The position numbers were made by a program, and so were the translations under genes. Positions 802 to 38,390 of a stretch of 64,000 bases of DNA are shown here, piece by piece (position 1 is the stretch's first letter; every line of letters starts with the position of its first letter). The notes below the pieces were generated by a model, which saw nothing but the letters and a program-made list of their open reading frames with translations, ran no database searches and had not been told where the DNA came from. Origin of the DNA: Bacillota bacterium (GTDB lineage: Bacteria; Bacillota; Limnochordia; Darwinibacteriales; DTU012); the NCBI GenBank assembly GCA_012837335.1, contig DURM01000007.1:31127-95126 (forward strand), written 5' to 3'.

Positions 802-821
802 CAGGGACAGAGGGTGATCAA

Positions 822-2117: not shown

Positions 2118-2120
2118 GTT

Positions 2121-3134: not shown

Positions 3135-3162
3135 CGAAGAAACGCAGAGAGGAGCTGATGGG

Positions 3163-4050: not shown

Positions 4051-4068
4051 CCTTAAAGGAGACCTGAT

Positions 4069-11648: not shown

Positions 11649-11652
11649 CAAA

Positions 11653-12632: not shown

Positions 12633-14909
12633 GTGAAACAAAGCAATAATTTTATCGGAGATATGCTCGACTTTGATTTGCCGGAGGCAGCTGATGATGT
12701 TTTCTGGCTTGGCGGGAGACCGACGGCGGTTCGGGCAGAAAATGGCGCTGCAGTGATTACAATACCCTTTCAAGCCCAGACCAGGCCGAAATTAAATCCT
12801 GATCCTTCGCAAGCGCCGAAATCCTATGATCTGATTGTCCGAGCTTACGGAGAGAAGATCGTCCGCTGTTCCATTTCTTTTGGCAGTGACTTTCCGGAAG
12901 ATGACACCAATGTGATGATGGAATGGGATCCGGCTCTTAAGCAGGAGCCATTAGAAGTTAGACCAGCTGCAGCAGGCTGGGATATAGTTGACAGCAGCGG
13001 AAATGTGCGGATGACCATCACGACCGCAGAGCAACCCATTAAAAAGTGGAGCTCGCTGCTGCCGCCGCCGCAGGATATCTTTGCTGCTGCCGTCTACCCC
13101 GATGGTAAAACCGCTGTGCCCTTTATGGCTTATGATACTTTTTCACCGGGGCACATCGATTCCGCCAGCTTGGGCTATGTAGAGCGTGATTCTAAACCAA
13201 ACCGCTCTGTGTTTTCGCTGTACGCAGGACCGGATGAAAAGTTTGCCGGAACCGGCGAGCGGTTTTTGGGCATGAACCTTTCCGGACAAACCATTATTTT
13301 AGAAAATGAGGATGCGGCCGGTGCTAACAGCCGCAGGGCTTATAAAAACATTCCGTTTTACCTTTCCAGCCGCGGTTATGGACTCTTAATTATGACTTCC
13401 TACCATGTGCGGCTTTCTCTGGCCGATATCTCAACCAGAGCGGCTCAAGGGCTGGTTGAATCAGATCTTCTGGATCTGTTTTTTATCGGAGGCGAGACTC
13501 CGGCTGAGATTATTCGCGGTTACTGGCAGATAACCGGATATCCCCGGAATGTGCCGCTATGGTCATATGGTGTATGGATGAGCCGCATGACCTACTTTTC
13601 AGCCGAAGAAACGCTGGATATCGCCCGTAAGCTGAGGGAAGGCGGATATCCCTGCGATGTAATTCACCTTGATACCGGATGGTTCCGGAAAGATTGGCAG
13701 TGCGAGTGGGAGTTTAACGAAAGAACCTTCCCCGATCCCAAGGGCTACATGGGTCAGATGCGGGACATGGGGATCAGAATCTCGCTGTGGCAGACTCCAA
13801 ATGTTGCGAAGAAAACGAAGCATTACCAGACGGCCATCGAAAATGGCTATCTGCCCCGGAAGCGGGCTGCTTCAGGGGATGCTTCCAACTTCGGCGCGGT
13901 AGAATACGGCGGCCGGATTGATTTTACCAATCCGGAAGCGGTTAAGTGGTACCAGGGGCTTTTGAAAAATCTTTTTGATTTGGGTGCTGAAGTAATCAAA
14001 ACTGACTTTGGTGAGATGATTGATTCCAACGCTGAGTTTTTTAACGGCATGAGCGGTGAGGAACTCCACAATCTCTACGCTCTTTTGTACCAGAAAGCAG
14101 CTTTCGATATTACAGAAAAGACTAAAGGCCGGGATCAGGCCATAATTTGGGCGCGGGCCGGTTGGACAGGATGCCAGCGGTATCCAGTGCACTGGAACGG
14201 GGACTGCGCCAGCACTTGGGATGGTCTGGCGGGAACAATTCGGTCGGGACTGCACATCGGTGTTTCCGGATTTGCCTTTTGGAGCCATGATGTGGGAGGG
14301 TTTCATGGACTTCCGGATTTTATGAACAGCTGGCCCGATGAAAAATTGTATCTGCGCTGGACTCAAGTAGGCGTTTTTACCAGCCACATGCGCTATCACG
14401 GCACTAATCCCCGGGAACCTTATCTCTATCCGGAAGTAAGCGATTTGGTGAGGGAGTGGCTGAAACTCCGCTATGCTCTGATTCCGTATCTGGATGAGCA
14501 GGGCAAAAAGGCGGTCAGCAGCGGTTATCCTGTCCTGCGGGCTTTGATTTTCCATCATTATGATGATCCATTCTGCTGGTATATCGATGATCAGTTCTAC
14601 TGTGGTGATCAGCTCTTAATTGCGCCGATCCTGAATCCGGAAGGAATCAGAAATGTTTATCTGCCGGCAGGTCAGTGGACCGATTTTTGGACCGGTGAAG
14701 TGATTGTAGGACCGGTGATGTTAAAGGATGTCAAAGCGGAGCTGTCCCGGATTCCAGTTTACTGCGCAACCGGATCGAAGATTTCGGTTTATCCAGAGGT
14801 GGTGCAGCATACTGGTGAAATGGATTTGAATAAAACTGTCCACCTAAATTTTGACCAAACATATCGGGGCTTTGACCAGTCTATTTTAGGTAAAATCATT
14901 AAAATTTAG
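12633..14909 (+). CDS. Glycoside hydrolase family 31 (alpha-xylosidase/alpha-glucosidase-like)
   Basis: GTG start. GH31 catalytic region DVIHLDTGWF and KTDFGE (as in YicI), plus WNGDCASTWDGL. No signal peptide. Confidence 0.75.
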   Translation: MKQSNNFIGDMLDFDLPEAADDVFWLGGRPTAVRAENGAAVITIPFQAQTRPKLNPDPSQAPKSYDLIVRAYGEKIVRCSISFGSDFPEDDTNVMMEWDPALKQEPLEVRPAAAGWDIVDSSGNVRMTITTAEQPIKKWSSLLPPPQDIFAAAVYPDGKTAVPFMAYDTFSPGHIDSASLGYVERDSKPNRSVFSLYAGPDEKFAGTGERFLGMNLSGQTIILENEDAAGANSRRAYKNIPFYLSSRGYGLLIMTSYHVRLSLADISTRAAQGLVESDLLDLFFIGGETPAEIIRGYWQITGYPRNVPLWSYGVWMSRMTYFSAEETLDIARKLREGGYPCDVIHLDTGWFRKDWQCEWEFNERTFPDPKGYMGQMRDMGIRISLWQTPNVAKKTKHYQTAIENGYLPRKRAASGDASNFGAVEYGGRIDFTNPEAVKWYQGLLKNLFDLGAEVIKTDFGEMIDSNAEFFNGMSGEELHNLYALLYQKAAFDITEKTKGRDQAIIWARAGWTGCQRYPVHWNGDCASTWDGLAGTIRSGLHIGVSGFAFWSHDVGGFHGLPDFMNSWPDEKLYLRWTQVGVFTSHMRYHGTNPREPYLYPEVSDLVREWLKLRYALIPYLDEQGKKAVSSGYPVLRALIFHHYDDPFCWYIDDQFYCGDQLLIAPILNPEGIRNVYLPAGQWTDFWTGEVIVGPVMLKDVKAELSRIPVYCATGSKISVYPEVVQHTGEMDLNKTVHLNFDQTYRGFDQSILGKIIKI

Positions 14910-16645: not shown

Positions 16646-17986
16646 ATGACAAAACCATATGTTCGGGAAATGACCGGTGACGAGCTGAAGTCAATGCTGA
16701 AAAGCAGCATTCAGTTTAAGAGCTTGGGAGGGGTAAAGCATCCCGGATTAAAACTCAGCGAAGAGGATTTGGTCTGGTGGCGGGATGCCAAGTTCGGCAT
16801 GTTTATTCACTGGGGGCTGTATTCGATTCTCGGCAGAGGCGAATGGGTAATGCACAATGAGAAAATCCCTGCGGAAGAATACAGAAAATTGGCGCAGGAA
16901 TTTAACCCTCAGCATTTTGATGCGGATCAATGGGCTCAGATTGCCAAGGATGCGGGTATGCGCTACATGGTGATGGTATCCCGCCACCATGACGGCTTTG
17001 CGCTTTGGGACAGCCCCGGCAGCTACCAGGATTTTACCAGCATGAATTCAGCCGCCAAACGGGATTTTGTCAAGGAGTATGTAGAGGCGTGCCGCAGAGC
17101 CGGCCTCAAGGTTGGGCTCTACTATTCGCCCATGGACTGGCGCTTCCCCGGCTATTTTCAGCCAAAAGAGCTTCTGGACAACGCTCTCTTGATGAAAAAG
17201 CAGTGCTACGATCAAGTCCGGGAATTGATGACCAACTATGGGCCGATTGATATTCTCTGGTATGACGGCGCTTGGCTGGCTCACAAAAACCACGACCCGG
17301 ATGCGGCTTGGCTGTGGGAACCGATCAAACTTAACCAGATGGTGCGGGAGATCAATCCCAAGGTTGTAATTAACCCCCGCTCGGGCTGGGAAGGGGATTT
17401 CTACTGTGATGAAGGCTCCCATGAGATTTCCGGCGGCATAATTCCGGTACCATGGGAAAAATGTCTGTGCATCTGCAGCGGCACCTCCTGGGGCTGGATT
17501 CCTGATGATCCGGTGATGGAATTTGATGATGCAATCAGAATGTTTGTCAATGTGTGGGTTCGCGACGGCAATATTCTCTTGAACGTAGGCCCTGATCGAG
17601 ACGGGCTGTTCCCGCCTGAGGTTGTGGAAAGACTGGAGGAAATTGGAGTATGGATGCGGGCAAATGGTGAAAGTATCTACGGCACCCGCGGCGGTCCGTT
17701 CCAGCCGGTGGATCAGGTATACGGCAGCACTTATAAGGATCATAAAATTTATGTGCATATTCTCGATTACGACAAGTTTAAGGATCTGCGTCTGCCTGCG
17801 CTGGAGCAGAAGATTGTCAGCTGTCAAACAATCGGCGGTGAACAGGTAGAGTTTGAGCAGACAGAGGGAGGAATTAAAATCTCCTTATCTCCAGATCAGA
17901 TCACACCTCCGGACACAATTGTTGTGCTGGAATTGGATGCCCCAGTGCCCAAACCAGAGCTGGAAGAAATATCATTTAAAGGTTAG
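16646..17986 (+). CDS. Alpha-L-fucosidase, glycoside hydrolase family 29
   Basis: AKFGMFIHWGLYS and RHHDGFALWDS GH29 motifs. No signal peptide. Confidence 0.8.
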   Translation: MTKPYVREMTGDELKSMLKSSIQFKSLGGVKHPGLKLSEEDLVWWRDAKFGMFIHWGLYSILGRGEWVMHNEKIPAEEYRKLAQEFNPQHFDADQWAQIAKDAGMRYMVMVSRHHDGFALWDSPGSYQDFTSMNSAAKRDFVKEYVEACRRAGLKVGLYYSPMDWRFPGYFQPKELLDNALLMKKQCYDQVRELMTNYGPIDILWYDGAWLAHKNHDPDAAWLWEPIKLNQMVREINPKVVINPRSGWEGDFYCDEGSHEISGGIIPVPWEKCLCICSGTSWGWIPDDPVMEFDDAIRMFVNVWVRDGNILLNVGPDRDGLFPPEVVERLEEIGVWMRANGESIYGTRGGPFQPVDQVYGSTYKDHKIYVHILDYDKFKDLRLPALEQKIVSCQTIGGEQVEFEQTEGGIKISLSPDQITPPDTIVVLELDAPVPKPELEEISFKG

Positions 17987-18005
17987 TACAGAAAAGGAGT
18001 CCAAG

Positions 18006-20018
18006 ATGAAATACGGAGTTTCATACTATCCTGAGCATAAACAGCGAGCTGAGATCGAGCAGGACATTCAATTGATGCAGGAGTTGGGGATCAACTTTGT
18101 CCGCATGGGCGAGTTTGCCTGGTGCAAATTTGAGCCGGTGGAAGGCCAGTATGAATTTGACTGGTTGGATCCGGTTATCGAAGAGCTGGGGCAGCTCGGT
18201 ATCCTGACCATTATCTGCACCCCAACTGCCTGCCCGCCCGCTTGGCTGGTAGAGAAGCACCCGGAGATTCTGTATGTGGATAACCGGGGCATGACCCGGC
18301 CTTTCGGCGGCAGGCGCAGCTACTGCTACAACAACCCGGTTTACCGGGAATATTCTCGGAAAATAGCTGAGGCAATCGGGAAGCATTATCGCGATAATCC
18401 CCATGTCTTTGCTTTTCAAATAGATAACGAATTGGCGCAGGAGGGCACCGGCCGCTGCCGCTGCCCTGTCTGCCGGGATAAGTTTCACGGCTGGCTGGAA
18501 GAAAAATATGGGACCATCGATGAGCTCAACCAGAAGCTGGGCACGATTTTCTGGGGGCAGACCTACGATCATTTCGGCCAGATCAATCCGCCGGTCAATT
18601 CCATCGAGCCCAATACCAACCAGGCAATCACGGCCTTTTTTGAAAACCCATCGCTGCGTTTAGATTTTGAACGGTTCTGCAGTGATTCCAATATCGAGTA
18701 CCAAAATATCCAAACGGAAGCGCTGCGCAAATACACCGATAAAGTCATCACAACCAATGCCACAGGGGTGGCTACTAACAGCATCAATTATTACAAAGCG
18801 TTTCAGGAACTGGATAGATACGCTTTCGATTATTACCCCAGCATCAGAGATCGGGAAGTCGATTCATTTCCCTATGCCCATGCCCGAGGGGTCCGCGGCG
18901 AGCAGTTCTGGCTGATGGAGTTTGTCTCCGGCGGCGGCCATGGTGCTTGGGGCGCAGGAAGGCTCCAGCACTATCCGGGAGCCCTGCAGCAGGCAGCGAT
19001 GCACGCATTTGCTTCCGGCGCTGAGCTGGTTGCCCATTTTCAGTTTCGGACTTTCCCCTTCGGAGCAGAACAGCTGAATTATGCGATTGTGGATATTGAC
19101 GGCATTCCCCGCCGCAAATTCTACGAAGTGCAGGCAGCAGCAGCTGATCTTAAAAAACTGGGAGAGATTCTGAAAAACTCGTCATTTAAGAACGAAGTGG
19201 CTTTATGCTTTGACTATGACGCTTTATGGGCCCTTAAGATTAAACCTGTTGCTAAGGACTTTGATTATGTCAAATTCTGCAGCGAGCTTTATAATGCTTT
19301 TGTCAGCCTTGGCGTCGGTGTGGATGTAGTCAGCTGTGAGGAAGATCTCAGCGGCTATAAGGCGGTGATTGTACCGACCCCGGCGGTGATGGACGGCCGC
19401 TTTAAACAGCGGTTGAAAGACTATGTGAATGCTGGAGGCATTCTGCTGTCCACCTTCCTGGCAGGCATTAAAAACGAGTACAATGTGGGCATTGCTGAAT
19501 CGCTCCCCTGCGGTCTGACCGATTTATTCGGCATCCGAGTTGGCGAAGTGGAGCCGGTCTTTGAGCGCACTGTTTCTCAGATTGCTGTGACTGTTGGTGA
19601 CAAGGAATATCAGGGTGCTAATAAATATTGGACCGAGACCCTAGAGGAAAATGGAGCTGAGATCATTGGTTTTTACGCTGACACCTTCAGGAAAGGTACC
19701 GGCGTGATCAGCAGAAATAATTATGGCAGGGGTCGCGCTTATTATCTCGGTACGGCGCTGGCCAGTGATCTGATGAAAACTTTAGCCCAGCTGATCATTG
19801 CTGACGGGAAAATTACCCAGGTGCCATTTCCGGTACTGCCGGGTGTGGAAGTAATTGTTCGGGAATATGCAGGCCGGAAAGTCTACTGTATCTTCAATTT
19901 CTGCCAGGAAGCAGTCGAGTTTGAACTCGGCGGGACTTACACTGATCTCCTGAACGATGCGGCAGTGGCTAACCTGAAACTTGATGCAAAGAGCTATGCA
20001 TTTATTATGGATAATTGA
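18006..20018 (+). CDS. Beta-galactosidase, glycoside hydrolase family 42
   Basis: ATG at 18006 after AAAAGGAG; the upstream part of the ORF-track ORF overlaps GH29. MKYGVSYYPEH, FAWCKFEPVEG, and the GH42 Cys cluster CRCPVCRD are present. Confidence 0.8.
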   Translation: MKYGVSYYPEHKQRAEIEQDIQLMQELGINFVRMGEFAWCKFEPVEGQYEFDWLDPVIEELGQLGILTIICTPTACPPAWLVEKHPEILYVDNRGMTRPFGGRRSYCYNNPVYREYSRKIAEAIGKHYRDNPHVFAFQIDNELAQEGTGRCRCPVCRDKFHGWLEEKYGTIDELNQKLGTIFWGQTYDHFGQINPPVNSIEPNTNQAITAFFENPSLRLDFERFCSDSNIEYQNIQTEALRKYTDKVITTNATGVATNSINYYKAFQELDRYAFDYYPSIRDREVDSFPYAHARGVRGEQFWLMEFVSGGGHGAWGAGRLQHYPGALQQAAMHAFASGAELVAHFQFRTFPFGAEQLNYAIVDIDGIPRRKFYEVQAAAADLKKLGEILKNSSFKNEVALCFDYDALWALKIKPVAKDFDYVKFCSELYNAFVSLGVGVDVVSCEEDLSGYKAVIVPTPAVMDGRFKQRLKDYVNAGGILLSTFLAGIKNEYNVGIAESLPCGLTDLFGIRVGEVEPVFERTVSQIAVTVGDKEYQGANKYWTETLEENGAEIIGFYADTFRKGTGVISRNNYGRGRAYYLGTALASDLMKTLAQLIIADGKITQVPFPVLPGVEVIVREYAGRKVYCIFNFCQEAVEFELGGTYTDLLNDAAVANLKLDAKSYAFIMDN

Positions 20019-20044
20019 TTCGGTCAGCAAAGGGGGAGAGGGGA

Positions 20045-22759
20045 ATGAAACAAGCAGTTATTCTAACTAGTGCTGAAAAAAACAAGCGGATCGAATTTGG
20101 AATTACTTATCTGGAAACAGCGCTTGCAAGCGCGGGTTATACGATTGAAAGAGGAGTTTTAGATCAAGATTACTACCGCTATCGGGATTTTCCGGGCGAG
20201 AAGATTTACATCGGCTGCAGGGGAACAGATCCCTTTACAGCTTGGCTCGAAGCAGAAGAAATCCTGATTTACCATGGACAGGAACCCCAACGGGAAGGGT
20301 TTTATCTCACTACTTGTCCCGGATTATTAACCGCTGTTGTCGGTGGAGATGATGTTGGGGCGCTGTATGGCTGTTTGGAATTGGCGGAGCGGATTGAAGC
20401 AGCAGGCGGGATTCCCGCTAATCTGGCGTTTTATGATGCTCCTGAGTTTAAACTGAGGGGACCCTGCCTGGGTCTGCAGAAAACCAAGATTGAACCGCCG
20501 CGGCTTACTTATGAGTATCCGATTACTCCGGATCGGTTCCCCTGGTTTTATGATCGGGAAATGTGGTTAAAGCTGCTGGACCGCATGGTTGAGTACCGCT
20601 GCAATGTGCTTTACTTGTGGAGCGGCCATCCCTTTTCCTCCTTGGTTAAGCTCGCGGATTATCCGGAGGCGCTGGAAGTAACGGATGAAGAGTTCGAGCT
20701 CAACCGGGAGATGTTCGGCTGGCTGACCGAAGAGTGCGACCGCCGCGGCATCTGGGTGGTTTTGAAGTTCTACAACATTCACATTCCCCATCCATTTGCG
20801 GTAAAGCACGGCCTGGAGCAGCGGCAGAGCCGAATTCATCCCCTAGTAGCGGATTATACCCGGAAGTCAATTGTTGAATTCATCAAGTCCTTCCCGAGAA
20901 TTGGTTTGATGGTGTGCCTTGGGGAAGCTCTCCGGGGCTATGACAATAAAACGGAGTGGTTTGTGGATACGATCATTCCTGCTGTGAGAGAAGGCATTAA
21001 GGAAGCGGGACTGACAGAAGAGCCGCCGATTATTCTCCGCGCCCACGACTGCGATCCCTTTGCAGCAATTGAGGGAGCGGCGGAGCAGTACTCCAATCTC
21101 TATACGATGTGGAAATACAATGGGGAAAGCCTCACTACTTATTATCAGCGGGGCAATTGGCACAAGCAGCACGCGGCCTTGAGCAAGATGAAATCGACCC
21201 ACATCATCAATGTTCACGTGCTGGCCAACTTGGAGCCGTTTCGCTTTAAAGCTGCCAATTATATTCTTAAATGCATGCAGTCGGCTAAATACCAGCTTGG
21301 CGGCAATGGACTCCATCTTTACCCGCTCTTTTATTGGGATTGGCCCTACGCTCCGGACAAGGCCGAACCGCGTCTTCTGCAGCTGGATCGGGATTGGCTG
21401 TGGTACGAAGCGTGGTTCCGCTACGCGTGGAATCCGGAGCGGAATGAGCAAACAGAAGCTCTCTACTGGACCAAGCGCCTGGCAGAGCACTATGGGTTAG
21501 AACTGGAAAGAGCAGAGCAGCTGCGGCAGGCTGTCGAAAGCGCCGGCCATATTGCTCCAAAGATTTTGGGTCGGATCGGTATTACCGAAGGCAACCGCCA
21601 GACTTTCAGCCTCGGCATGACCATGAGCCAAATCACCAATGTCAACCGCTATGGCCCGAACCGGGAGCTCTGGAATTCAGTCGCCCGTCGGGGCGAGCAG
21701 CCCGATGACTACATCACCAACGAAGTGGCGGGGCAGCCCCATATCGGTGAAACGCCTTATGATACTATCGCAGAAGTAAAAGCCGATGCCAAAATAGCTC
21801 TCGCCAGCATCAACAGCGCTTTAGAAAGTTTAACCAACCCCGATCCGGAGTTGGTGCGGATTAAGACAGATATTGAAGCCCTGTATTATCTCACTGAATT
21901 CTACTGCGCTAAACTGGAAGCGGGAATGCTGATTTTAAAATACAAATACACCATGGACGAGAATTACCAAGGGGATTTTGATCTGCTCGAGCAGGCGGCA
22001 GATTGGATGGCAGAGAGTCTGAAAGCTTACCGCAGAGTGACTGAGCTTACCAAAGATACCTATCTTTATGCCAACAGCCTTCAGACCACCCACCGCAAGA
22101 TTCCTTTCCCCGATGGGGAGCGGTATTACCACTGGTCGCAATGCCTGCCTGAATATGAGCAGGAATATGAGAACTTTGTCCGCAATGCCGCGCGGCTGAA
22201 AGCAGGTGAGCTGCCGCAGTTTGCAGCTGGGGATCAGCCGGTGAAAAAGCTTCCGGAAGCAGAATTTGAGCTGTTAAGTCCGGAGTGGGAACTGTGCCCG
22301 GTGCGGATTGGCAGCAGGTTGTTTAAGGATGGACGGGAGATAATCCAGGCGGTTATTCCGCCCCTGGACGGCATGACCGGCATCCGCCTAAGCCACGCAG
22401 CCTGCCGCAGTAAAGGGGCAGAAATTAAGCTGGAGTTGAAAGAAGACAGCCAGATCTTAATTGGATATATCAAGGACCAGGATCAGAAGTGGCTGCAGGC
22501 GCCGAAACTGGAAACCAATGCTCACGCAGATGATCGGGGCGGATTTAAAGTCCAGTTCGGCAATGCGGTGCTCGCTTCTGACTGCCCGGCTGTCGATATT
22601 CATGCCCTGCAGTATGAAAAGGGTGTCCATGAGCTGTACTTAGGTACCGGAAGCTTTCTGGTTATAGGCATTGTGCCAAAAACCGTCAACTTGGCGGATG
22701 CAGCCGGCAAGTATGCCAAAGATGGTCCGGAAACCTTAGATTGGCTGTACACAGAATAG
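20045..22759 (+). CDS. Large cytoplasmic putative glycoside hydrolase (904 aa) with GH20/67/84/89/115-clan-like N-terminal lid domain; family unassigned
   Basis: ATG at 20045 after AAAGGGGGAGAGGGGA. The N-terminal GH67N/GH20b-like stretch LLTAVVGGDDVGALYGCLELAERIE is followed by a probable TIM-barrel core (VLYLWSGHPF, LMVCLGEA). No signal peptide. Confidence 0.35.
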   Translation: MKQAVILTSAEKNKRIEFGITYLETALASAGYTIERGVLDQDYYRYRDFPGEKIYIGCRGTDPFTAWLEAEEILIYHGQEPQREGFYLTTCPGLLTAVVGGDDVGALYGCLELAERIEAAGGIPANLAFYDAPEFKLRGPCLGLQKTKIEPPRLTYEYPITPDRFPWFYDREMWLKLLDRMVEYRCNVLYLWSGHPFSSLVKLADYPEALEVTDEEFELNREMFGWLTEECDRRGIWVVLKFYNIHIPHPFAVKHGLEQRQSRIHPLVADYTRKSIVEFIKSFPRIGLMVCLGEALRGYDNKTEWFVDTIIPAVREGIKEAGLTEEPPIILRAHDCDPFAAIEGAAEQYSNLYTMWKYNGESLTTYYQRGNWHKQHAALSKMKSTHIINVHVLANLEPFRFKAANYILKCMQSAKYQLGGNGLHLYPLFYWDWPYAPDKAEPRLLQLDRDWLWYEAWFRYAWNPERNEQTEALYWTKRLAEHYGLELERAEQLRQAVESAGHIAPKILGRIGITEGNRQTFSLGMTMSQITNVNRYGPNRELWNSVARRGEQPDDYITNEVAGQPHIGETPYDTIAEVKADAKIALASINSALESLTNPDPELVRIKTDIEALYYLTEFYCAKLEAGMLILKYKYTMDENYQGDFDLLEQAADWMAESLKAYRRVTELTKDTYLYANSLQTTHRKIPFPDGERYYHWSQCLPEYEQEYENFVRNAARLKAGELPQFAAGDQPVKKLPEAEFELLSPEWELCPVRIGSRLFKDGREIIQAVIPPLDGMTGIRLSHAACRSKGAEIKLELKEDSQILIGYIKDQDQKWLQAPKLETNAHADDRGGFKVQFGNAVLASDCPAVDIHALQYEKGVHELYLGTGSFLVIGIVPKTVNLADAAGKYAKDGPETLDWLYTE

Positions 22760-22779: not shown

Positions 22780-23925
22780 GTGACTTCTAAAGAAAGAGTG
22801 CTGAAAACAATTGCCCATCAGGAACCAGATCGGGTTCCGGTGGGAGAATGGGGCATCGATCACGATCATGTCAGTAGGATTATCGGCCGCCATACTTATT
22901 ACCGCAACCGCCGCGATGAAACGATTGCCATTTGGGAAGGCAGACGAGACGAGGTTGTGGGCAGCTATAAGCACGACTATGAAGAGCTGATCAAGAAACT
23001 GGATTACGACATCATTACCGTTGATCTAGTACCGCCGCGAGGCTATATCCATCCTGACCCTCCCCGCAGAATCGGGGAGGGTGTGTGGGAGGATTCCCGG
23101 GGACGAATTTATAAATATGCGGCCAGCAATGATTCAATCATGTGCATCGATAATAAGGAGCCTGCCCGGGAGCAGGTTACTGACGAGGATCTTGCAAGGC
23201 TTTTTGCCAGTTTGGATCAGATGGACGATTCTATCTTCGAGCTCGTCGATTATTTCGGGGCTAAATACGGCGATGAGAAAGTGGTTTTATTCCGCGGCAT
23301 CGATATCTACGACTGTTTGATGAATGTTTTTGGCGGCGATCAAGAGCATCAGCTGATTCTGCCTCTAATTGCTCCGGAACAGATCAAGAAAGTGCGTGAT
23401 TACGCCTTAGCGTACAATAAAAAGCTGATCAAGCACTGCGCAGAAAACAAGGTGTTAATCTGCATGCAGGGGAAAGATTTCGGGATGAATACTTCTACAA
23501 TCATGTCGCCTGCAGTAATCCGGGACATCTATCTGCCATTGATTGCGGAAGTCAACCGGGAAATCGCAGCTCACGGGATGATTCCCTTCTTCCACTGCTG
23601 CGGCAATATCTGGGCGATTCTCGATGATTTTGCAGCAGCTGGCTATCAGGGATACCAGTCGATTCAAGAAACGGCGGGTATGGATACCCGGCGGGTTAAG
23701 GAGCAGTATGGTGATATTCTCACGCTCTGGACTGGAATCCAGTGCGAGACCTTAATTGAAGGTACGCTGGCGGAGACGGAGCAGGAGGTTAGGTCGGCGT
23801 TAGAGTTTTTAATGCCGGGAGGGGGATTTATTTTCGGCTCCACCAATTCAGTTCAGTATGGAGCTAAGACCGACAACTACCTCAAAGCTCTGGAGATTGT
23901 GCGGGAATATGGGATCTACCGCTGA
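22780..23925 (+). CDS. URO-D (uroporphyrinogen decarboxylase/MtaA methyltransferase-like) family protein
   Basis: GTG at 22780 lies 9 nt after GGAGG; the ORF-track TTG at 22741 overlaps the upstream gene. [17 protein letters not shown] and [29 protein letters not shown] match the URO-D/MtaA fold. Confidence 0.55.
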
Positions 23926-23948
23926 GAATGGTGATGGAGGAAAAGAAG

Positions 23949-26165
23949 ATGGTTGATCTAAAGATGGTGAAAGTAACGGCCGGCGAGTATAAGCGGGGTG
24001 GCGGTGATCTGAAAGACAGACCAGATGCGCTGCCTCGCCACAAGGTAACCCTTACCAGCGATTTTGCGATCTCGCAGGAGCCGATTAAATACGACTTGTT
24101 TGCGCACTTTTATCTGGAAAGGTACGGTGAAAAGCCGGATGTAGAGAACTATATGGGTTATGTGATTGGGGTCAGCTGGTATGAGGCGGATGAATTCTGC
24201 CGCTGGCTGACGGAAAAAACCGGTGAGTTCTACCGTCTGCCGACAGAAGCAGAGTGGGAGTACTGTGCACGAAACAGCCGCAAATTAGGCCTTGACCGGA
24301 TGTGCGACCTGCATCTGCGGGAGTGGTGTTTTGATTGGTACGATGTCTACTCGGAAGAGGATCAGATTGATCCCGCAGGGCCCGATGGAGGCATGTTTAA
24401 AGTTGTCAGGGGCGGATTTTTAGACAATCCGGAGCGGTTTAATACTTACCACACCGAAGTGTGGATGCGGGCGTCGATGGCGCCGAACTACCGCCACTAC
24501 CCAGATGATATCCACAATGATTTTGGGCGCCACAATATTGGTTTCCGCGTGATCAAGGGACAACCTGCCGTGACCAACGGCAGGCAGGTTACTGCCCCCC
24601 TCAGTCTGCATGTAAAAGAAAACCCGCCGATGGGTAAAATCCGCGGGGATGTTCCTTATTTCCGCAAGCGGTTCTTATTTCCGATTCCGCCGGATACCGC
24701 TTCGTCCGAAGCGATTCGAGCATTCGGCTTAAATCCGCTGCTGCGGCACCACAACCATTCTCCGGGATTTGATGTGGCGCCAAATGGTGATTTGATCGTA
24801 TCTTTTTACTCATCCTACTGGGAATACGACGCAGAGGTGGGGCTGATTGCCGCAAGGCTCCGGTATGGTGCCGATGAGTGGGAGCTTCCGGATATCTTCG
24901 TGAATCCCGTGGCAGTTAATGACCATGCGCCCCTCTTGTTTACTGATTCTGATGGCACCATCTACCATTTCTGGGGCTGGCCGGAGCTGGAAAATGCGTT
25001 TCCGTTCCAGTTCATCTACTCTAAAGACAGCGGCGCAACCTGGAGTGAAGTGCAGTTTCCCAAGTTTAAGGAGAAGGCGGAGCAGGTGATGCGCCAGCCG
25101 ATTAACACTGTCGTGCACGCCCAGGACGGTTTTTATTACCTAGCCTGTGATGTGCGGGGCGAGTCCGCTTCGGTTTTGTACCGTTCCAAAGATTTGCTTA
25201 ACTGGGAAGTGCCTCAGGGCAAGACTCCAGGCCGACACAGCACAGTAGTGGAGTTACAAGATGGGCGGCTGTTGGCTGTGGGTGGAAAAAACACTGCTAT
25301 TGATGGCTATATGCCCCAAGGTATCTCCGGGGATCGGGGCGATACCTGGGAAGTGAGTAAAACTCCCTTTCCCGCCATGTCTTCGGGGCAGAGACCCTGC
25401 ATCATTAGGCTTCAGAGCGGACGGCTGTTTATGTGCGGAGATTTCCAGAACAAACAGGGTCAAAGACCCCGGGAAGCAGGCCCCGACGAGTGGGGTTCCT
25501 ACGCTGCTTATTCTGAGGACGAAGGAAAAACTTGGAAGTTTAAGAAATTATGGGGTACCCAGCACAAGAAGCAGGATGCCAACCAGTTAGGCGGGTCCCA
25601 CACCATAGGATATGCGGTCTGCCGCCAGTCGCCGGATGGACTGATTCACATTATTACTTCCAACAACCGCCCCAGTCTCCACCTCTGCTTTAATGAAGCC
25701 TGGCTGTTGGACGATGCGGAACCGACCATTCCTGATGATCAGGAACTGATGTACGAGCGGGCAGCCAAACTGCGGGATGTGGAGACTTATACGGAAAAAT
25801 ACGAAAACGGACAGGTTAAGTGTGTCTATTCCGGCGGATTTGCTGAGGACGGGCGTTTTCTCCTCCATGGTGAAGAAAGATGGTATTATCCGTCCGGACA
25901 GCTGATGACCGAGTGCACTTATGAGTATGGGGTCAGGAAAAACCGCTATGTCCACTATTCTGAGTTGGGAGATAAAATCTGGGAATGGGAGTATCTAAAG
26001 GACAATACAGCTGTCTATAAAACTTATTATTCCAATAACCAGCTGAAGACTGTGGGCCGCTACCGCAGCCGCATTGCGGAAGGCTGGAGCGAGACCTATT
26101 CTCCTGAAGGTAAGGTAACTGCTAGATTCTTATTTGATAACGGCAGGATTATTAAAAACGAGTAA
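23949..26165 (+). CDS. Three-domain protein: FGE/SUMF1-like domain + BNR/sialidase-like beta-propeller + C-terminal MORN-variant repeats
   Basis: ATG at 23949 lies 8 nt after GGAGG. FGE-family core [15 protein letters not shown]...RGGF...NIGFRV. BNR/Asp-box motifs [16 protein letters not shown] and SEDEGKTW. C-terminal YwqK/MORN_2-like repeats in WYYPSGQL...[16 protein letters not shown]...FDNGRI. No signal peptide. Confidence 0.5.
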
Positions 26166-26176
26166 GAGGGAAAACC

Positions 26177-27253
26177 ATGACAGATAAGCTGACTCTAGGT
26201 GTATTGGGTTTGGGGGAAGGCAGAAGCATTATTTCTGCCTGCCTCCAGAGTGAGATGTGGGAATTGGGCAATATCTGCGATATTAATGAAGAGATGTGCC
26301 GAGAGCGGGCAGAGGAGTTTGGACTTACCAAATACACAACCTCGTATCAGGACATGCTGCGGGATCCAGAAATAGATGTAATCGGAATTTACACTCCCGA
26401 CCAGCTTCACGCTGCCCATATTAAGCTGGCACTCGAAGCGGGAAAACATGTGATCTGCACCAAACCCCTGATTGTGGATTTAAGCCAAGCCAAGGAGCTG
26501 TTGGAAGTGCAGAAGCGGACCGGGAAGGCGGTCTTTGTGGGTCAGAGCTCCCGCTATTTTGAGCCGATGGTGCGGCAGCGCCAGGATTATCTGGCGGGTA
26601 AGCACGGTGAGCTTGTAACAATTGAGACCCACTATATCAGTGATTCCCGCTGGTTTCTCCAGAAAAGCTGGAGCCATCAGTCCGGATTCTCGTGGCTGTA
26701 CAATTTTATGAACCACGCGGTTGACTTGGCCGCTTGGTATCTGCCGGATGTGGAGGAAGTTTACGCGGTGGGAGTAGTCAGCGCCAACACCAAAGAATGG
26801 AAGCTGACAGTACCGGATACCATTAAAGCGGTTTTGAAGAGCACTAGCGGCATCTGCGCCAGCGCAGCCGGCGTTTATGCGGCGCCAACTCTGGGCAGCG
26901 CGGTGGAGCAGTCCATCAGCTGCACTCTCAGAGGCACGAAGGGAATCAGCCGCGCTGGATACCCAAAGCTTCAGTATTACACCAATTTCCCTCCGGTGAA
27001 GAAAACGGCAGAACTGCACACCTACGACGAAATGCATGGCTATTACTTCCGGTTTGAAGCGGAGACTCACCACGCGGGAGAATACCAGAATTATATTGAA
27101 GAATTTGCCTCCTGTCTCTTTCAGGGCAAAACACCAAAGCCGGATCTGGAGGAAGGGATTCGGACGATTGCGGTGCTGGAAGCAATCGATGAGTCGATGC
27201 GGACCGGAAAAGTTGTGAAAGTAGATGAAGTGCTGGCAAAATATCTTGGCTGA
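26177..27253 (+). CDS. Gfo/Idh/MocA-family NAD(P)-dependent oxidoreductase
   Basis: LGVLGLGEGRS Rossmann N-terminus, and GKHVICTKPL (EKP-type motif). Confidence 0.7.
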   Translation: MTDKLTLGVLGLGEGRSIISACLQSEMWELGNICDINEEMCRERAEEFGLTKYTTSYQDMLRDPEIDVIGIYTPDQLHAAHIKLALEAGKHVICTKPLIVDLSQAKELLEVQKRTGKAVFVGQSSRYFEPMVRQRQDYLAGKHGELVTIETHYISDSRWFLQKSWSHQSGFSWLYNFMNHAVDLAAWYLPDVEEVYAVGVVSANTKEWKLTVPDTIKAVLKSTSGICASAAGVYAAPTLGSAVEQSISCTLRGTKGISRAGYPKLQYYTNFPPVKKTAELHTYDEMHGYYFRFEAETHHAGEYQNYIEEFASCLFQGKTPKPDLEEGIRTIAVLEAIDESMRTGKVVKVDEVLAKYLG

Positions 27254-27267
27254 AGCAGGAAAGGAAG

Positions 27268-29094
27268 ATGAGGGTGGACTACCGCCGGAGAACTGCGGCT
27301 AGGCAGCCAATCCGCTATATCGGCTCCGAAAAAGCAGATATCCGCTTCTATGACGGAGCCTTAAGGCGCGCCATCGGTGCCAAAAACTATCAGGTAATGC
27401 GGGCCAACCGAGAGTTTCCTGAATCCCAGGAGGATTACGGCTGGACCTACAACCACGCGCCGATGCTCTGCTGGTGGAACGATCATTTCTGGGTTCAGTA
27501 TCTCAGCAATCCGGTCAGCGAGCATGAACCGCCATCCCATACGCTTTTGACTTGGTCCCGAGATGGAGAAAAGTGGTCTAAGCCGGTTGTGATCTTTCCC
27601 CAATTTCCCCTGCCGGAAGGGGTTTATACCGGTCCGGAAAAGGAGCTGTTAAAGCCCGGTGATACTGCCATCATGCACCAGCGGATGGGCTTTTATGTTA
27701 CCAACAGCGGCAGGCTTTTGGTGTTAGGATTTTACGGTGTTTCCCCTAGGAAACAGGTCAGTCCCAACAATGGCTGGGGCATTGCCCGGGTGGTACGGGA
27801 AGTCTACGCAGACTTTACCTTCTCTCCGGTTTATGTGATCCGCTATAACGAATACGGTGGTTTCCAGCCTGAGCACATCGATTTTCCATTTTATCAAACC
27901 AGCGGCGATCCGGGCTTTATTGCAGCTTGTGATGAGCTGCTCGGCAATAAACTTGTAGTTCGGCAGTGGTGGGAAGAGCAGCGCTTCGATACCGAGCTCT
28001 TTAGTCAGTCCAGCCGGCAGGCATTCTGTTTCTATACTCTGCCGGATCAGCGTGTAGTCGGACTTTATAAGCACGCCGATGTCAATATCAGTGAGGATGG
28101 TGGAGAGAGCTGGGGCGATTATACTAGGTGCACATCGATTGAAACTTCAACCGGAAAGATCTGGGGCGAAAGAACAGAAGACGGCAGGTATGCTCTGGTT
28201 TACAATCCATCCACTGACAGCATGCACCGCTGGCCGCTGGCAGTTGTTACCAGCGATGATGGTGAAAATTTCGATCAGCTGCTGACTCTGACCCCTTTCG
28301 TTCCGCCTACCCGCTATGAAGGCTGGGCCAAGAATCTGGGTCCCCAGTATGTGCGGGGAATCTGTGAAGGCTTTCCTAAGCCCATGGACGGACATTTGTG
28401 GGTTACCTACAGCATGAATAAAGAGGATATCTGGGTCTGCAGGGTACCGGTGCCCATTACCGGTGAAGAAACCGAGCCCATAGATGAGGATTTCAGCGAT
28501 CCGAACATTCCCAAATGGAACATTTACGCTCCGAGCTGGTGCCGGATCAATTGCTGTAAGGACAGCAAGGGTTTAGTAATCCGGGATAGTGATCCCTATG
28601 ATAAAGCCATCGCCGAGCGGGTATTTCCGGAATCAGTGGTTCTTACCCTTCAGACTGAGATCATTCCTAACACAATCGGCGAAGCGGGGTTGTATCTAGA
28701 TCTAACCGATGGCAGAGGCTCGACGCCGGTCAGAATAGTCTTTAAGCCGGATTACAATCTCTTTGTTAAAGCAAATGGCGTGTACCACCAGATCCACAGC
28801 TTTGCAGTAGATAAGGTTTATGGGATTACTATTAAAGCGGACTGTGTGCTCAATCAGTTTGCAGTTTGGATCAGCTGTGAAGAAGAAGAGCTGATTGCAA
28901 AAACCTACCGGTTTAATACATCAGTCCATAGTTTAGAGCGGCTGGTTTTCCAGACCAAAGATCGGGTTAATAACTATGATTTAGAATCAAACGGTAAAGA
29001 TGGCAGTATGAGCGACCTTCCCAATGCGGGCAGGCGCGCTCCGGAAACGAAGTTTGTGATTACTATGGTGAAGACCATGGATCATCTTAAGTGA
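27268..29094 (+). CDS. BNR-repeat sialidase-like (exo-alpha-sialidase fold) protein, cytoplasmic
   Basis: Asp-box motifs SRDGEKW, SEDGGESW and TSDDGENF. YNHAPML is sialidase-like. No signal peptide. Confidence 0.5.
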   Translation: MRVDYRRRTAARQPIRYIGSEKADIRFYDGALRRAIGAKNYQVMRANREFPESQEDYGWTYNHAPMLCWWNDHFWVQYLSNPVSEHEPPSHTLLTWSRDGEKWSKPVVIFPQFPLPEGVYTGPEKELLKPGDTAIMHQRMGFYVTNSGRLLVLGFYGVSPRKQVSPNNGWGIARVVREVYADFTFSPVYVIRYNEYGGFQPEHIDFPFYQTSGDPGFIAACDELLGNKLVVRQWWEEQRFDTELFSQSSRQAFCFYTLPDQRVVGLYKHADVNISEDGGESWGDYTRCTSIETSTGKIWGERTEDGRYALVYNPSTDSMHRWPLAVVTSDDGENFDQLLTLTPFVPPTRYEGWAKNLGPQYVRGICEGFPKPMDGHLWVTYSMNKEDIWVCRVPVPITGEETEPIDEDFSDPNIPKWNIYAPSWCRINCCKDSKGLVIRDSDPYDKAIAERVFPESVVLTLQTEIIPNTIGEAGLYLDLTDGRGSTPVRIVFKPDYNLFVKANGVYHQIHSFAVDKVYGITIKADCVLNQFAVWISCEEEELIAKTYRFNTSVHSLERLVFQTKDRVNNYDLESNGKDGSMSDLPNAGRRAPETKFVITMVKTMDHLK

Positions 29095-38321: not shown

Positions 38322-38390
38322 GAAATACTGCAGGAAACGCAGTCGCAAAGCCGAATAACATTGGCGAGCATAATTACAGGAGGGCAGATT

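What the first reader, a model, noticed from the sequence alone, without database searches (positions are those of the whole stretch)
22780..23925. Two URO-D/MtaA-fold paralogs (here and at 1-801) embedded in a glycoside-hydrolase locus
URO-D-fold proteins include HemE and also the corrinoid-dependent methyltransferases MtaA/CmuA. Two stand-alone URO-D-like genes sit beside fucosidase, GH115 and GH140-family genes. Those enzymes act on glycans that carry methyl-ether sugars (2-O-Me-fucose, 2-O-Me-xylose, 4-O-Me-glucuronate). I propose, speculatively, that these are O-demethylase components that remove sugar methyl ethers anaerobically, analogous to the aerobic P450 6-O-methyl-galactose demethylase. 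This would be undescribed biochemistry.
Basis: inference. Interest (0 to 1): 0.5.

Follow-up and report, generated by a model that had tools for sequence, protein, structure and literature searches.

The report
MtaA-like enzymes in a pectin locus
Two very different enzymes with the uroporphyrinogen-decarboxylase/MtaA fold sit inside a pectin (rhamnogalacturonan-II) breakdown locus of an anaerobic digester bacterium; they are not haem enzymes, and close relatives encoded next to vitamin-B12 carrier proteins make an undescribed B12-dependent removal of methyl groups from sugars plausible but unproven.

Summary
Both genes are real and both proteins have the URO-D/MtaA fold. They are not demonstrable paralogs. 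Family A (22780-23925) is a weak Pfam URO-D hit. Family B (1-801, the last 266 of 367 residues) is recognised only by predicted structure.

Neither is HemE. The HemE signature motifs are absent, no haem genes are nearby, and the nearest characterised relatives are corrinoid methyltransferases. A keeps the MtaA His-x-Cys motif but lacks the third Cys ligand. B has His-x-Asp.

The window and 10 kb upstream hold no corrinoid protein. The published metabolic reconstruction says this lineage lacks most Wood-Ljungdahl genes.

In other anaerobes, however, 56-60% identical relatives sit in operons with corrinoid proteins:
- sugar ABC transporter, URO-D-like, B, URO-D-like, corrinoid protein, URO-D-like;
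- corrinoid protein / CobW / MtaA-like / B / GH140 apiosidase;
- an AraC-corrinoid fusion, then MtaA-like, then A.

A also sits beside alpha-galacturonidases of two unrelated families. B also travels with apiose/acid-sugar catabolic genes.

Substrate and corrinoid dependence remain untested. I put corrinoid-dependent sugar demethylation at about 0.4 and a corrinoid-independent sugar-acid enzyme at about 0.35.

The parts
22780..23925 (+). Family A: 381-aa cytoplasmic URO-D/MtaA-fold protein. Invariant motifs are GIDHDH (25-30), [FY]HCCG (271-275), G[VI]QCE (319-323) and PGGGFxFGSTNS (346-357).
   Evidence: Pfam URO-D E 3.7e-10. NCBIfam MtaA/CmuA hits of about 30 bits. AF2 pLDDT 92.3. Foldseek best match MtaA, E 1.4e-13. 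Motifs. The start 20 nt after the upstream gene and the 2-nt gap to the downstream gene come from the ORF table.
1..801 (+). Family B: C-terminal 266 aa of a 367-aa URO-D/MtaA-fold protein that is in no Pfam or NCBIfam family. Invariant motifs are QCDF (228-231) and [YF]HLDG (260-264), numbered on P0121.
20015..22759 (+). Alpha-D-galacturonidase-like protein (914 aa from the longest ORF start; 904 aa in the database gene calls) directly upstream of family A. Same position in L007-L009.
   Evidence: NCBIfam NF049878, 961 bits, below the 1300 cut-off; no Pfam hit. Synteny.
23928..26165 (+). FGE-sulfatase-like + BNR propeller + MORN protein directly downstream of family A.
   Evidence: Pfam. Conserved in all copies of this locus.
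26177..27253 (+). GFO/IDH/MocA oxidoreductase. It recurs near family A in 13 of 49 related loci.
   Evidence: Pfam. Neighbour clustering.
822..4050 (+). Three genes directly after family B: a DUF1537-type (SBD_N/NBD_C) acid-sugar kinase, a PdxA-family oxidoreductase and a DHDPS-like aldolase. This is an apionate-like acid-sugar catabolic module.
   Evidence: Pfam. ApnO is the PdxA-family enzyme and OiaK the DUF1537 kinase; this assignment is recalled from Carter et al. 2018, which PMC12994016 cites.
4069..5376 (+). GH140 apiosidase (first copy).
   Evidence: Pfam Apiosidase E 9e-113.
10689..12621 (+). Two ABC sugar-transporter permeases of the locus.
   Evidence: Pfam BPD_transp_1.
12633..14909 (+). 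GH31 (alpha-xylosidase/alpha-glucosidase type).
   Evidence: Pfam. GH31-like genes also flank A and B in L057, L105 and L107.
16646..17986 (+). GH29 alpha-L-fucosidase.
   Evidence: Pfam E 1.8e-82.
17853..20018 (+). GH42 beta-galactosidase-like protein, two genes upstream of family A. The synteny is conserved in 7 loci.
   Evidence: Pfam..
27268..29094 (+). BT_1020-like propeller glycosidase, an RG-II marker.
   Evidence: Pfam E 4e-93.
38361..40673 (+). GH95 alpha-L-fucosidase/galactosidase.
   Evidence: Pfam E 2.7e-176.
47526..49559 (+). GH115 alpha-(4-O-methyl)glucuronidase family protein.
   Evidence: Pfam E 3.9e-61.
56741..58054 (+). GH140 apiosidase (second copy).
   Evidence: Pfam E 1.2e-97.

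Best explanation
Families A and B are cytoplasmic, probably metal-dependent TIM-barrel enzymes on the methyltransferase side of the UroD superfamily. I propose that they act on pectin/RG-II fragments imported by the locus's ABC transporters.

The most likely role is the substrate-specific 'methyltransferase I' half of a corrinoid-dependent demethylation:
- An active-site metal polarises the methyl-oxygen bond of a methylated sugar. In A the candidate ligands are His272, Cys274 and Cys322/Glu323, plus the GIDHDH loop. In B they are His261, Asp263 and Cys229.
- The substrate could be a methyl ether such as 2-O-Me-Fuc, 2-O-Me-Xyl or 4-O-Me-GlcA. For A, given its alpha-galacturonidase neighbours, it could be a methylated or methyl-esterified galacturonate.
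- The methyl group passes to the Co(I) of a corrinoid protein encoded elsewhere in the genome.
- A separate methyltransferase II unloads it to tetrahydrofolate or a thiol.

Shown: the fold, the motifs, the gene contexts and the corrinoid-protein adjacency in relatives. Inferred: metal binding, corrinoid dependence in this organism, the identity of the substrate and the methyl acceptor.
For: 1. Fold and nearest relatives.
- A: MtaA is the best PDB hit by sequence (E 0.002 single sequence, 9e-4 profile) and by fold. The chloromethane MT I CdmB is a weak profile hit (E 0.1).
- A: NCBIfam hits are only MtaA/CmuA models.

2. Not HemE.
- HemE signatures are absent in 30/30 of each family.
- A keeps the invariant His-x-Cys of MtaA/MetE.

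3. Corrinoid proteins (B12-binding_2 + B12-binding) in operons with close relatives.
- L061: SBP, permease, permease, URO-D-like 322 aa, B (60% id), URO-D-like 365 aa, corrinoid protein 212 aa, URO-D-like 375 aa.
- L062: LacI, SBP, permeases, B, then a corrinoid protein starting at or just after B's stop.
- L059: corrinoid protein / CobW / MtaA-like+thioredoxin / B / GH140 apiosidase / rhamnogalacturonase-like.
- L035 and L038: AraC-corrinoid fusion, canonical MtaA-like protein with the full His-x-Cys...Cys set, then A (56-58% id).

4. A and B are linked to each other and to other URO-D-fold genes.
- They are adjacent in L057.
- Arrays of URO-D-fold genes occur in many loci.

5. All 49 genome loci for A come from anaerobic glycan degraders.

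6. Saccharolytic non-acetogens carry a stand-alone core module with no MT I beside it.
- Mahella australiensis: PocR-AraC, pterin-binding MT II, corrinoid protein, RACo activator.
- Caldicoprobacter guelmensis has the corrinoid module about 7 kb from a GH140.
- An MT I partner acting in trans is therefore realistic. The CdmB study also had to look genome-wide for such partners (PMC13222342).

7. The UroD superfamily is known to contain O-, S- and halogen-demethylating corrinoid methyltransferases (PMC10418091; PMC13222342).
Against: - No corrinoid protein, RACo activator or pterin-binding methyltransferase lies in the 64-kb window or in 10 kb upstream. No cobalamin riboswitch was found.
- Only 6 of 129 related loci (1.46 Mb) hold a corrinoid protein. 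These represent about 4 independent events, and one of them (L101) is not operonic.
- Most loci, including arrays of several URO-D-fold genes, have none.
- Similarity to any characterised methyltransferase is remote: 30 bits against cut-offs of 235-400.
- The third MtaA zinc ligand is missing in A. B has no Cys at the His-x-Cys position.
- No fusion of A to a B12-binding domain was found among the long relatives checked.
- The published reconstruction finds that Ca. Wallacebacteriaceae lack Wood-Ljungdahl genes other than AckA and Fhs, so there is no evident sink for methyl-THF (PMC12663870).
- Contexts of A include GH92 and hexosamine-type loci that are not known for methyl sugars.
- B co-occurs about as often with apiose/acid-sugar catabolic genes as with corrinoid proteins.
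- Cleavage of an aliphatic sugar methyl ether by Co(I) has no biochemical precedent that I could find.
Confidence: 0.4

Rival explanations
1. A and B are corrinoid-independent enzymes of sugar-acid metabolism that merely share the UroD fold.
- A would act on galacturonate or galacturonate-terminated oligosaccharides, for example as a metal-dependent decarboxylase, isomerase or de-esterase working with the adjacent alpha-galacturonidase and NAD-dependent oxidoreductase.
- B would supply a missing step, such as decarboxylation of a beta-keto acid, in apiose/apionate or aceric-acid catabolism.
For: For A:
- It lies directly beside alpha-galacturonidases of two unrelated families. One is the GH138-like gene in the window and L007-L009. 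The other is an LplD-type GH4, present in 9 loci and directly adjacent in 6; the representative matches PDB 3fef at E 1e-148.
- GFO/IDH/MocA genes recur in 13 of 49 loci.

For B:
- In the window it is followed by a DUF1537 kinase, a PdxA-family enzyme, a DHDPS-like aldolase and GH140. It is preceded by split transketolases.
- Transketolase pairs occur in 5 B loci and the kinase+PdxA pair in 3.
- No RuBisCO-like decarboxylase motif was found in any locus (a weak test based on a recalled motif).

General:
- About 95% of loci lack a corrinoid protein.
- The lineage lacks a Wood-Ljungdahl methyl sink.
- The UroD superfamily also contains decarboxylases and ApcE-like proteins.
Against: - No precedent exists for such activities in this fold.
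- The nearest relatives by every measure are methyltransferases rather than HemE.
- The invariant His-x-Cys of A is the methyltransferase hallmark.
- Operons in which 56-60% identical relatives sit next to corrinoid proteins and MtaA-like proteins would be unexplained.
- A and B occur in many loci without uronidase or apiose genes.
Confidence: 0.35
2. The system is corrinoid-dependent but the roles are split. B and the other His-x-Asp proteins are the substrate-specific methyltransferase I. A, with its thiolate-type His-x-Cys site, is a methyltransferase II that unloads methyl-corrinoid onto a thiol or tetrahydrofolate, as MtaA, MtbA and MtqA do.
For: - A carries the MtaA/MetE-type His-x-Cys plus a further invariant Cys.
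- A-type and B-type genes are paired in L057, L061, L026 and L138.
- A close relative of A (P0256, E 3e-68) is fused to a fragment of an MttB-family methyltransferase I.
Against: - In L035 and L038, A sits beside a canonical MtaA-like protein that already fills the methyltransferase II role.
- A is usually alone in sugar operons, without B.
- A has a large polar insertion (residues about 85-130) and many invariant Asn/Ser/Thr/Gln/Trp/Tyr residues. These look like a sugar-binding lid (inference).
Confidence: 0.12
3. They are ordinary HemE (uroporphyrinogen decarboxylase) copies for haem or sirohaem synthesis that happen to lie in a glycan locus.
For: Only the Pfam family name and the database annotation 'uroporphyrinogen decarboxylase family protein'.
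Against: - HemE signatures are absent.
- There is no NCBIfam hemE hit.
- Only the C-terminal half of A matches the Pfam model, and B does not match at all.
- No haem genes appear in any of 129 loci; the neighbours are ABC sugar transporters and glycoside hydrolases.
Confidence: 0.01

Closest known systems
MtaA / MtbA methylcobamide:coenzyme M methyltransferases (PDB 4ay7/4ay8)
   Same: Same fold, and the best structural match for both A and B. A retains the His-x-Cys zinc motif. Relatives of A and B lie next to MtaC-type corrinoid proteins.
   Different: About 12-14% identity. NCBIfam scores are far below the cut-offs. The third Cys ligand is absent. A has a 40-residue polar insertion and a GIDHDH loop. 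B has His-x-Asp. The hosts are bacteria with no known coenzyme M, and the genes sit in sugar-uptake operons.
UroD-superfamily methyltransferase I enzymes of three-component demethylases (OdmB, VdmB, MtvB, MtoB for aryl methyl ethers; CdmB for chloromethane)
   Same: Same superfamily (PMC10418091, PMC13222342). The proposed logic is the same: substrate to Co(I)-corrinoid protein to methyltransferase II. CdmB is a weak profile hit of A (E 0.1). Partners can be encoded away from the MT I gene.
   Different: Known substrates are aromatic methyl ethers or methyl halides bound in hydrophobic pockets, in acetogens or methanogens. Here the conserved residues are polar, the context is glycan degradation, and the host reportedly lacks the Wood-Ljungdahl pathway.
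HemE uroporphyrinogen III decarboxylase
   Same: TIM-barrel fold. Foldseek E 1e-10 for A and 5e-9 for B.
   Different: The substrate-binding signature (RQAGR and the second motif) is absent. A has candidate metal ligands that cofactor-free HemE lacks. There is no haem context.
MetE cobalamin-independent methionine synthase
   Same: Same superfamily. It shares the His-x-Cys zinc motif with A. It is a weaker fold match.
   Different: MetE is a double barrel of about 750 aa with a further Cys ligand and folate and homocysteine sites. Nothing here suggests methionine synthesis.
Aerobic cytochrome P450 6-O-methyl-D-galactose demethylase of marine bacteria (recalled from the literature, not checked here)
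   Same: It would be the functional analogue: removal of a sugar methyl ether within a polysaccharide-utilisation locus.
   Different: The chemistry is unrelated (O2-dependent oxidative demethylation releasing formaldehyde) and so are the fold and the cofactors.

Membership tests
UroD/MetE-like fold superfamily | Distorted (beta/alpha)8 barrel that superimposes on UROD/MtaA clearly better than on generic TIM barrels | tested here: met
Pfam PF01208 URO-D | Score above the gathering threshold (23.9 bits) | tested here: met
   A scores 39.8 bits, C-terminal half only. B is not met: no hit for the window fragment or for P0121, and 11-14 bits in homologues.
HemE (uroporphyrinogen decarboxylase) | N-terminal P-x-W-x-M-R-Q-A-G-R motif and the second URO-D signature (PROSITE patterns recalled from memory) | tested here: not met
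   0 of 30 sequences in each family match. A has [11 protein letters not shown] at the equivalent position.
HemE (uroporphyrinogen decarboxylase) | NCBIfam TIGR01464 equivalog score, and a haem-biosynthesis gene neighbourhood | tested here: not met
   A and B give no hemE hit even at E <= 1. The 129 related loci show sugar transporters and glycoside hydrolases.
MtaA/CmuA family methyltransferase (TIGR01463 / NF040654) | Score above the curated cut-off (235-400 bits) | tested here: not met
   A scores 29-30 bits. B has no hit.
MtaA/CmuA family methyltransferase | Zinc ligands His-x-Cys plus a C-terminal Cys | tested here: inconclusive
   A has an invariant His272-x-Cys274. The C-terminal Cys position is Gly/Asn, and an alternative invariant Cys322-Glu323 lies on the adjacent strand. 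B has His261-x-Asp263. No 3-D coordinates were available to measure the geometry.
Three-component corrinoid-dependent demethylase (MT I + corrinoid protein + MT II + activating enzyme) | Cognate corrinoid protein (B12-binding_2 + B12-binding) encoded with or near the MT I gene | tested here: not met
   There is none in the window or L005. It is met in relatives L061, L062, L059, L035 and L038. Presence elsewhere in this genome could not be tested.
Three-component corrinoid-dependent demethylase | Methyltransferase II and RACo-type reductive activator in the genome | not testable with these tools
   Only 74 kb of the genome was readable, against a longest contig of 2.39 Mb. Such modules exist in other saccharolytic Clostridia.
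Three-component corrinoid-dependent demethylase | Methyl transfer from substrate to Co(I) | not testable with these tools
   This needs a biochemical assay.

The most novel reading that the evidence does not exclude
Anaerobic glycan degraders of guts and digesters carry a large, unrecognised radiation of UroD-fold methyltransferase I enzymes embedded in sugar-uptake operons. The radiation includes family A, whose profile finds 7453 representative clusters at E <= 0.001, and the Pfam-invisible family B. These enzymes would strip methyl groups (ether or ester) from plant-wall sugars such as 2-O-Me-Fuc, 2-O-Me-Xyl, 4-O-Me-GlcA or methylated GalA. They would do so by transfer to Co(I) of a shared corrinoid protein served by a central PocR-regulated module of corrinoid protein, methyltransferase II and RACo activator. 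That would be an anaerobic counterpart of the P450 sugar demethylase, and a route that feeds pectin- and hemicellulose-derived methyl groups into C1 metabolism without free methanol.
Probability: 0.35. Interest if true: 0.85.

Novelty: new variant of a known kind. Interest (0 to 1): 0.6.

Why it matters
How anaerobes deal with methyl-etherified sugars of pectin and xylan is not established. From memory, the RG-II degradation work on Bacteroides reported that one linkage, to 2-O-methyl-xylose, stays uncleaved.

If A and B are sugar:corrinoid methyltransferases, three things follow:
- The corrinoid demethylase paradigm would extend from aromatic ethers, amines and halides to carbohydrates.
- It would explain why saccharolytic non-acetogens keep corrinoid-protein/RACo modules.
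- It would open a vitamin-B12-dependent link between dietary fibre breakdown and C1 or methyl-thiol metabolism in guts and biogas reactors.

Family B would also become a new family in a fold where no sequence model currently sees it. If instead they are corrinoid-independent sugar-acid enzymes, they still mark unknown steps next to alpha-galacturonidases and in apiose/aceric-acid catabolism.

Tried and rejected
- Direct paralogy of A and B: BLASTP E 0.7 and hhalign probability 2%. Only the fold links them.
- HemE identity: rejected.
- Corrinoid partner in the window: a regex for DxHxxG...SxL...GG, plus tblastn with three corrinoid proteins against the window and L005, found nothing.
- Cobalamin riboswitch: 0 Rfam hits in the window and six key loci.
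- Rosetta-stone fusions of A with a B12-binding domain: ten long relatives from the exhaustive search carry none. One carries a fragment of MTTB.
- Finding the Wallacebacter corrinoid protein by looking for a hit on the 2,391,850-bp contig among homologues of the L059 corrinoid protein: none in the top 120, so uninformative.
- L101's corrinoid protein: 7.7 kb from B among unrelated genes, so treated as coincidence.
- RuBisCO-like decarboxylase motif in all loci: 0 hits. The motif was recalled from memory, so this is a weak test.
- Literature: six full-text searches on URO-D or corrinoid O-demethylase terms with pectin, glycan or methyl-sugar terms found no paper on corrinoid-dependent or anaerobic sugar demethylation, or on URO-D proteins in glycan loci.
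- Carter et al. 2018 on apiose catabolism is not held. Statements about it rest on memory and on its citation in PMC12994016.
- Source names for B ('trimethylamine corrinoid protein 2', 'metH') were not used as evidence. B has no B12-binding fold and hits no NCBIfam model.
- My first guess of a Paenibacillus-like facultative host was wrong. The host is an uncultured strict-anaerobe lineage.
Full report
OBSERVATION

The ORF at 22780-23925 (+) is a real, widely sampled gene. Its 381-aa product is identical to a database protein named 'uroporphyrinogen decarboxylase family protein [Candidatus Wallacebacter cryptica]'. That protein is found on 114 contigs, the longest 2.39 Mb.
- Pfam URO-D matches at E 3.7e-10, but only over the C-terminal half.
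- An AlphaFold model built on 30 homologues has pLDDT 92.3.
- Its best solved-structure matches are the methylcobamide:CoM methyltransferase MtaA (4ay8, E 1.4e-13, TM 0.65/0.72) and then many HemE structures.

The ORF at 1-801 is the last 266 residues of a 367-aa protein, P0121.
- It hits nothing in Pfam, NCBIfam or PDB by sequence.

'Paralogs' overstates it: BLASTP gives E 0.7 and profile-profile comparison gives probability 2.3%. I call them family A (22780-23925) and family B (1-801).

THE LOCUS

The window is one long plus-strand glycan-utilisation region with the hallmarks of rhamnogalacturonan-II and pectin breakdown:
- two GH140 apiosidases, a BT_1020-like propeller enzyme, GH95, GH29, GH31, GH42, GH2 and GH115;
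- a 914-aa protein that scores 961 bits on the NCBIfam alpha-D-galacturonidase model;
- ABC sugar transporters, LacI, and two-component/AraC regulators;
- sugar kinases and isomerases.

Family A starts 20 nt after the galacturonidase-like gene, and the next gene starts 2 nt after it, so it is operonic. Family B is followed at 20 nt by a DUF1537-type kinase, a PdxA-family enzyme, a DHDPS-like aldolase and GH140. A contig that extends upstream (L005) shows what precedes it: an Asp/Glu-racemase-like gene, two split transketolase pairs, a transaldolase, a cupin, a GH43/32-like gene and a 635-aa protein of no known family.

The host is an uncultured anaerobic-digester lineage described as a pectin degrader (PMC12663870).

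NOT HEME; ON THE METHYLTRANSFERASE SIDE

- The only NCBIfam hits of A are three MtaA/CmuA-type models, at about 30 bits and far below the cut-offs. No hemE model hits.
- MtaA is the only significant PDB sequence hit (E 0.002 for the single sequence, 9e-4 for the profile). The chloromethane methyltransferase I CdmB is a weak hit at E 0.1.
- The two HemE signature motifs (recalled from PROSITE) are absent from all 30 aligned members of each family.
- In A, the position of HemE's arginine-rich loop carries an invariant GIDHDH.
- A keeps an invariant His272-x-Cys274, which aligns with the His-x-Cys zinc ligands of MtaA.
- The third MtaA cysteine is replaced ([12 protein letters not shown]). An invariant Cys322-Glu323 follows the neighbouring strand.
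- B has an invariant His261-x-Asp263 and a QCDF motif.
- I could not obtain coordinates, so metal-site geometry is inferred from barrel topology only.

WHERE ELSE THE FAMILIES OCCUR

A profile of A finds 7453 representative clusters at E <= 1e-3 and 147 at E <= 1e-30.

A scan of one genome per species returned 49 loci. All are from anaerobic polysaccharide degraders: Clostridia, Lachnospiraceae including isolates such as Murimonas intestini, Oscillospiraceae, Treponema, Planctomycetota, Lentisphaerota, Chitinivibrionales, Omnitrophota and Latescibacterota.

Neighbour clustering shows A embedded in sugar ABC-transporter operons, with AraC-type regulators in 22 loci and permeases in 20. Three arrangements recur:
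- AraC, large SBP, two permeases, an alpha/beta-hydrolase, A, GH4. The hydrolase is in 10 loci and the GH4 in 9. The GH4 representative is an LplD-type alpha-galacturonidase (PDB 3fef, E 1e-148). The hydrolase resembles acetyl-xylan/glucuronoyl esterases.
- GH42, galacturonidase-like gene, A, GFO/IDH/MocA, BT_1020-like gene. This is the window's own arrangement, also seen in L007-L009.
- GH42, GH92, A, SBP.

A thus sits beside alpha-galacturonidases of two unrelated families.

B has 777 homologues among the scored candidates. In 80 metagenome loci it usually follows ABC permeases directly. Its other recurring neighbours are:
- A-like genes, in 11 loci;
- split transketolases, in 5;
- the kinase+PdxA pair, in 3;
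- GH95, in 5;
- GH31-like genes.

A and B are adjacent in L057, in an operon reading GH31-like, A-like, GH29, GH4-like, A, B.

THE CORRINOID LINK

The window and L005 contain no B12-binding domain and no cobalamin riboswitch. Among the 129 related loci (1.46 Mb), six contain a methyltransferase-type corrinoid protein, meaning B12-binding_2 plus B12-binding. Five of the six are operonic with A or B:
- L061: SBP, permease, permease, URO-D-like (322 aa, His-x-Cys), B (60% identical to the window's), URO-D-like (365 aa), corrinoid protein (212 aa), URO-D-like (375 aa).
- L062: LacI, SBP, permeases, B, then a corrinoid protein starting at or just after B's stop.
- L059: corrinoid protein / CobW-type metallochaperone / MtaA-like protein with a thioredoxin-like domain, then divergently B, GH140 apiosidase and a rhamnogalacturonase-like gene.
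- L035 and L038: an AraC regulator fused to a complete corrinoid module, a canonical MtaA-like protein with the full His-x-Cys...Cys set, then A (56-58% identical). Housekeeping genes flank this trio.

All these URO-D-like neighbours hit MtaA/CmuA models ahead of hemE. A close relative of A (P0256) carries an N-terminal fragment of an MttB-family methyltransferase.

Working back from the corrinoid protein gives further context:
- The saccharolytic isolate Mahella australiensis has PocR-AraC, a pterin-binding methyltransferase, the corrinoid protein and a RACo activator, with no methyltransferase I beside them.
- Caldicoprobacter guelmensis has PocR-AraC, the corrinoid protein, CobW and a URO-D protein about 7 kb from a GH140.
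- An abundant digester Clostridiales bacterium has the corrinoid protein and RACo alone.

A shared core module with scattered, substrate-specific methyltransferase I genes is therefore realistic. The CdmB study likewise had to look genome-wide for partners (PMC13222342).

AGAINST

- About 95% of loci lack a corrinoid protein, including loci with arrays of URO-D-fold genes.
- The six positives amount to about four independent events, and one (L101) is probably coincidence.
- Similarity to characterised methyltransferases is remote.
- The third zinc ligand is missing.
- No B12-domain fusions were found.
- The published reconstruction reports that Wallacebacteriaceae have only AckA and Fhs of the Wood-Ljungdahl set, so a methyl-THF sink is not evident. 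A thiol acceptor would be needed, and that is speculation.
- Some A contexts, such as GH92 or the hexosamine/asparaginase-type genes, are not known for methylated sugars.
- B's association with apiose/acid-sugar genes is about as frequent as its association with corrinoid proteins. That cluster lacks the RuBisCO-like enzymes of the published apionate routes, so B could be a missing decarboxylase.

MECHANISM AND VERDICT

The best-supported reading, at about 0.4, is that A and B are substrate-specific methyltransferase I-type enzymes. They would take a methyl group from an imported, methylated pectic sugar and pass it to a corrinoid protein encoded in trans.
- The conserved His/Cys site in A, or the His/Asp site in B, would act as a Lewis acid on the methyl-bearing oxygen, as zinc does in methanol and veratrole methyltransferases.
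- The galacturonidase adjacency adds methylated or methyl-esterified galacturonate as a candidate for A. A carboxylate would be a far better leaving group than an alkoxide; this is inference.

The main rival, at about 0.35, is a corrinoid-independent role in uronate or branched acid-sugar metabolism. A split-role variant, with B as MT I and A as MT II, gets about 0.12. HemE gets about 0.01.

NOVELTY

I found no paper describing corrinoid-dependent or anaerobic sugar demethylation, or URO-D-fold proteins in glycan loci. Membership in the UroD superfamily is established. Membership in HemE or in the curated MtaA/CmuA family is not. If the hypothesis holds, this is a new variant of a known kind of system: a new substrate class, and, in B, a family invisible to current sequence models.

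Noticed in passing
L035 7390-8946; L038 7366-8940: An AraC-type regulator (cupin + HTH_18) is fused to a complete methyltransferase-type corrinoid module (B12-binding_2 + B12-binding, DLHDIGKN). It lies directly upstream of an MtaA-like gene and family A. It may be a transcription factor that senses B12 or the methylation state of its own corrinoid.
   Followed up: partly
P0256; L136 1656-3200: A 514-aa protein consists of the last ~118 residues of an MttB-family (trimethylamine methyltransferase) barrel fused to a family-A-like URO-D domain. It is the first gene of an ABC-transporter operon and is seen on two contigs.
   Followed up: partly
L144 (Mahella australiensis CP002360, 1108714-1129349); L145 (Caldicoprobacter guelmensis); L146: Saccharolytic, non-acetogenic Clostridia carry a PocR-AraC + corrinoid protein (+ pterin-binding methyltransferase + RACo activator) core module with no methyltransferase I beside it. 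In Caldicoprobacter it lies about 7 kb from a GH140 apiosidase and next to CobW and a 453-aa URO-D protein.
   Followed up: partly
window 1-5376 plus L005 1221-12228: A candidate apiose or branched acid-sugar catabolic cluster: Asp/Glu-racemase-like gene, two split transketolase pairs, transaldolase, cupin, GH43/32-like gene, a 635-aa protein with no family hit, family B, DUF1537 kinase, PdxA-family enzyme, DHDPS-like aldolase and GH140. No RuBisCO-like enzyme of the published apionate pathways was seen.
   Followed up: partly
window 20015-22759: A 914-aa protein has no Pfam domain and scores 961 bits on the NCBIfam alpha-D-galacturonidase model, below its 1300-bit cut-off. It is probably a divergent GH138-type enzyme.
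   Followed up: no
window 23928-26165: An unusual architecture: a partial FGE-sulfatase-like (formylglycine-generating-enzyme fold) N-terminus, a BNR/sialidase-like propeller and MORN repeats. It is wedged between family A and the GFO/IDH/MocA gene and is conserved in every copy of this locus.
   Followed up: no
L016 11152-12546 and equivalents in L019, L028, L032, L044, L020: The GH4 next to family A in Lachnospiraceae-type operons is an LplD-type alpha-galacturonidase (PDB 3fef, E 1e-148). Family A is therefore flanked by alpha-galacturonidases of two unrelated families in different lineages.
   Followed up: yes
L059 758-3066 (-); L145 10793-13095 (-): A CobW-type GTPase metallochaperone is paired with an MtaA-like protein that carries a C-terminal thioredoxin-like domain, next to the corrinoid protein. 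This suggests dedicated zinc delivery or redox control for the methyltransferase.
   Followed up: no
window 7919-10753, 15168-16532 and 49576-50295: A 944-aa DUF5696 protein, and two ORFs (454 and 239 aa) with no Pfam hit, lie inside the glycan locus. The 454-aa one sits where a solute-binding protein would be expected.
   Followed up: no
window 43803-46301: A large GAF-PAS-GGDEF-HD-GYP signalling protein separates the two halves of the glycan region.
   Followed up: no
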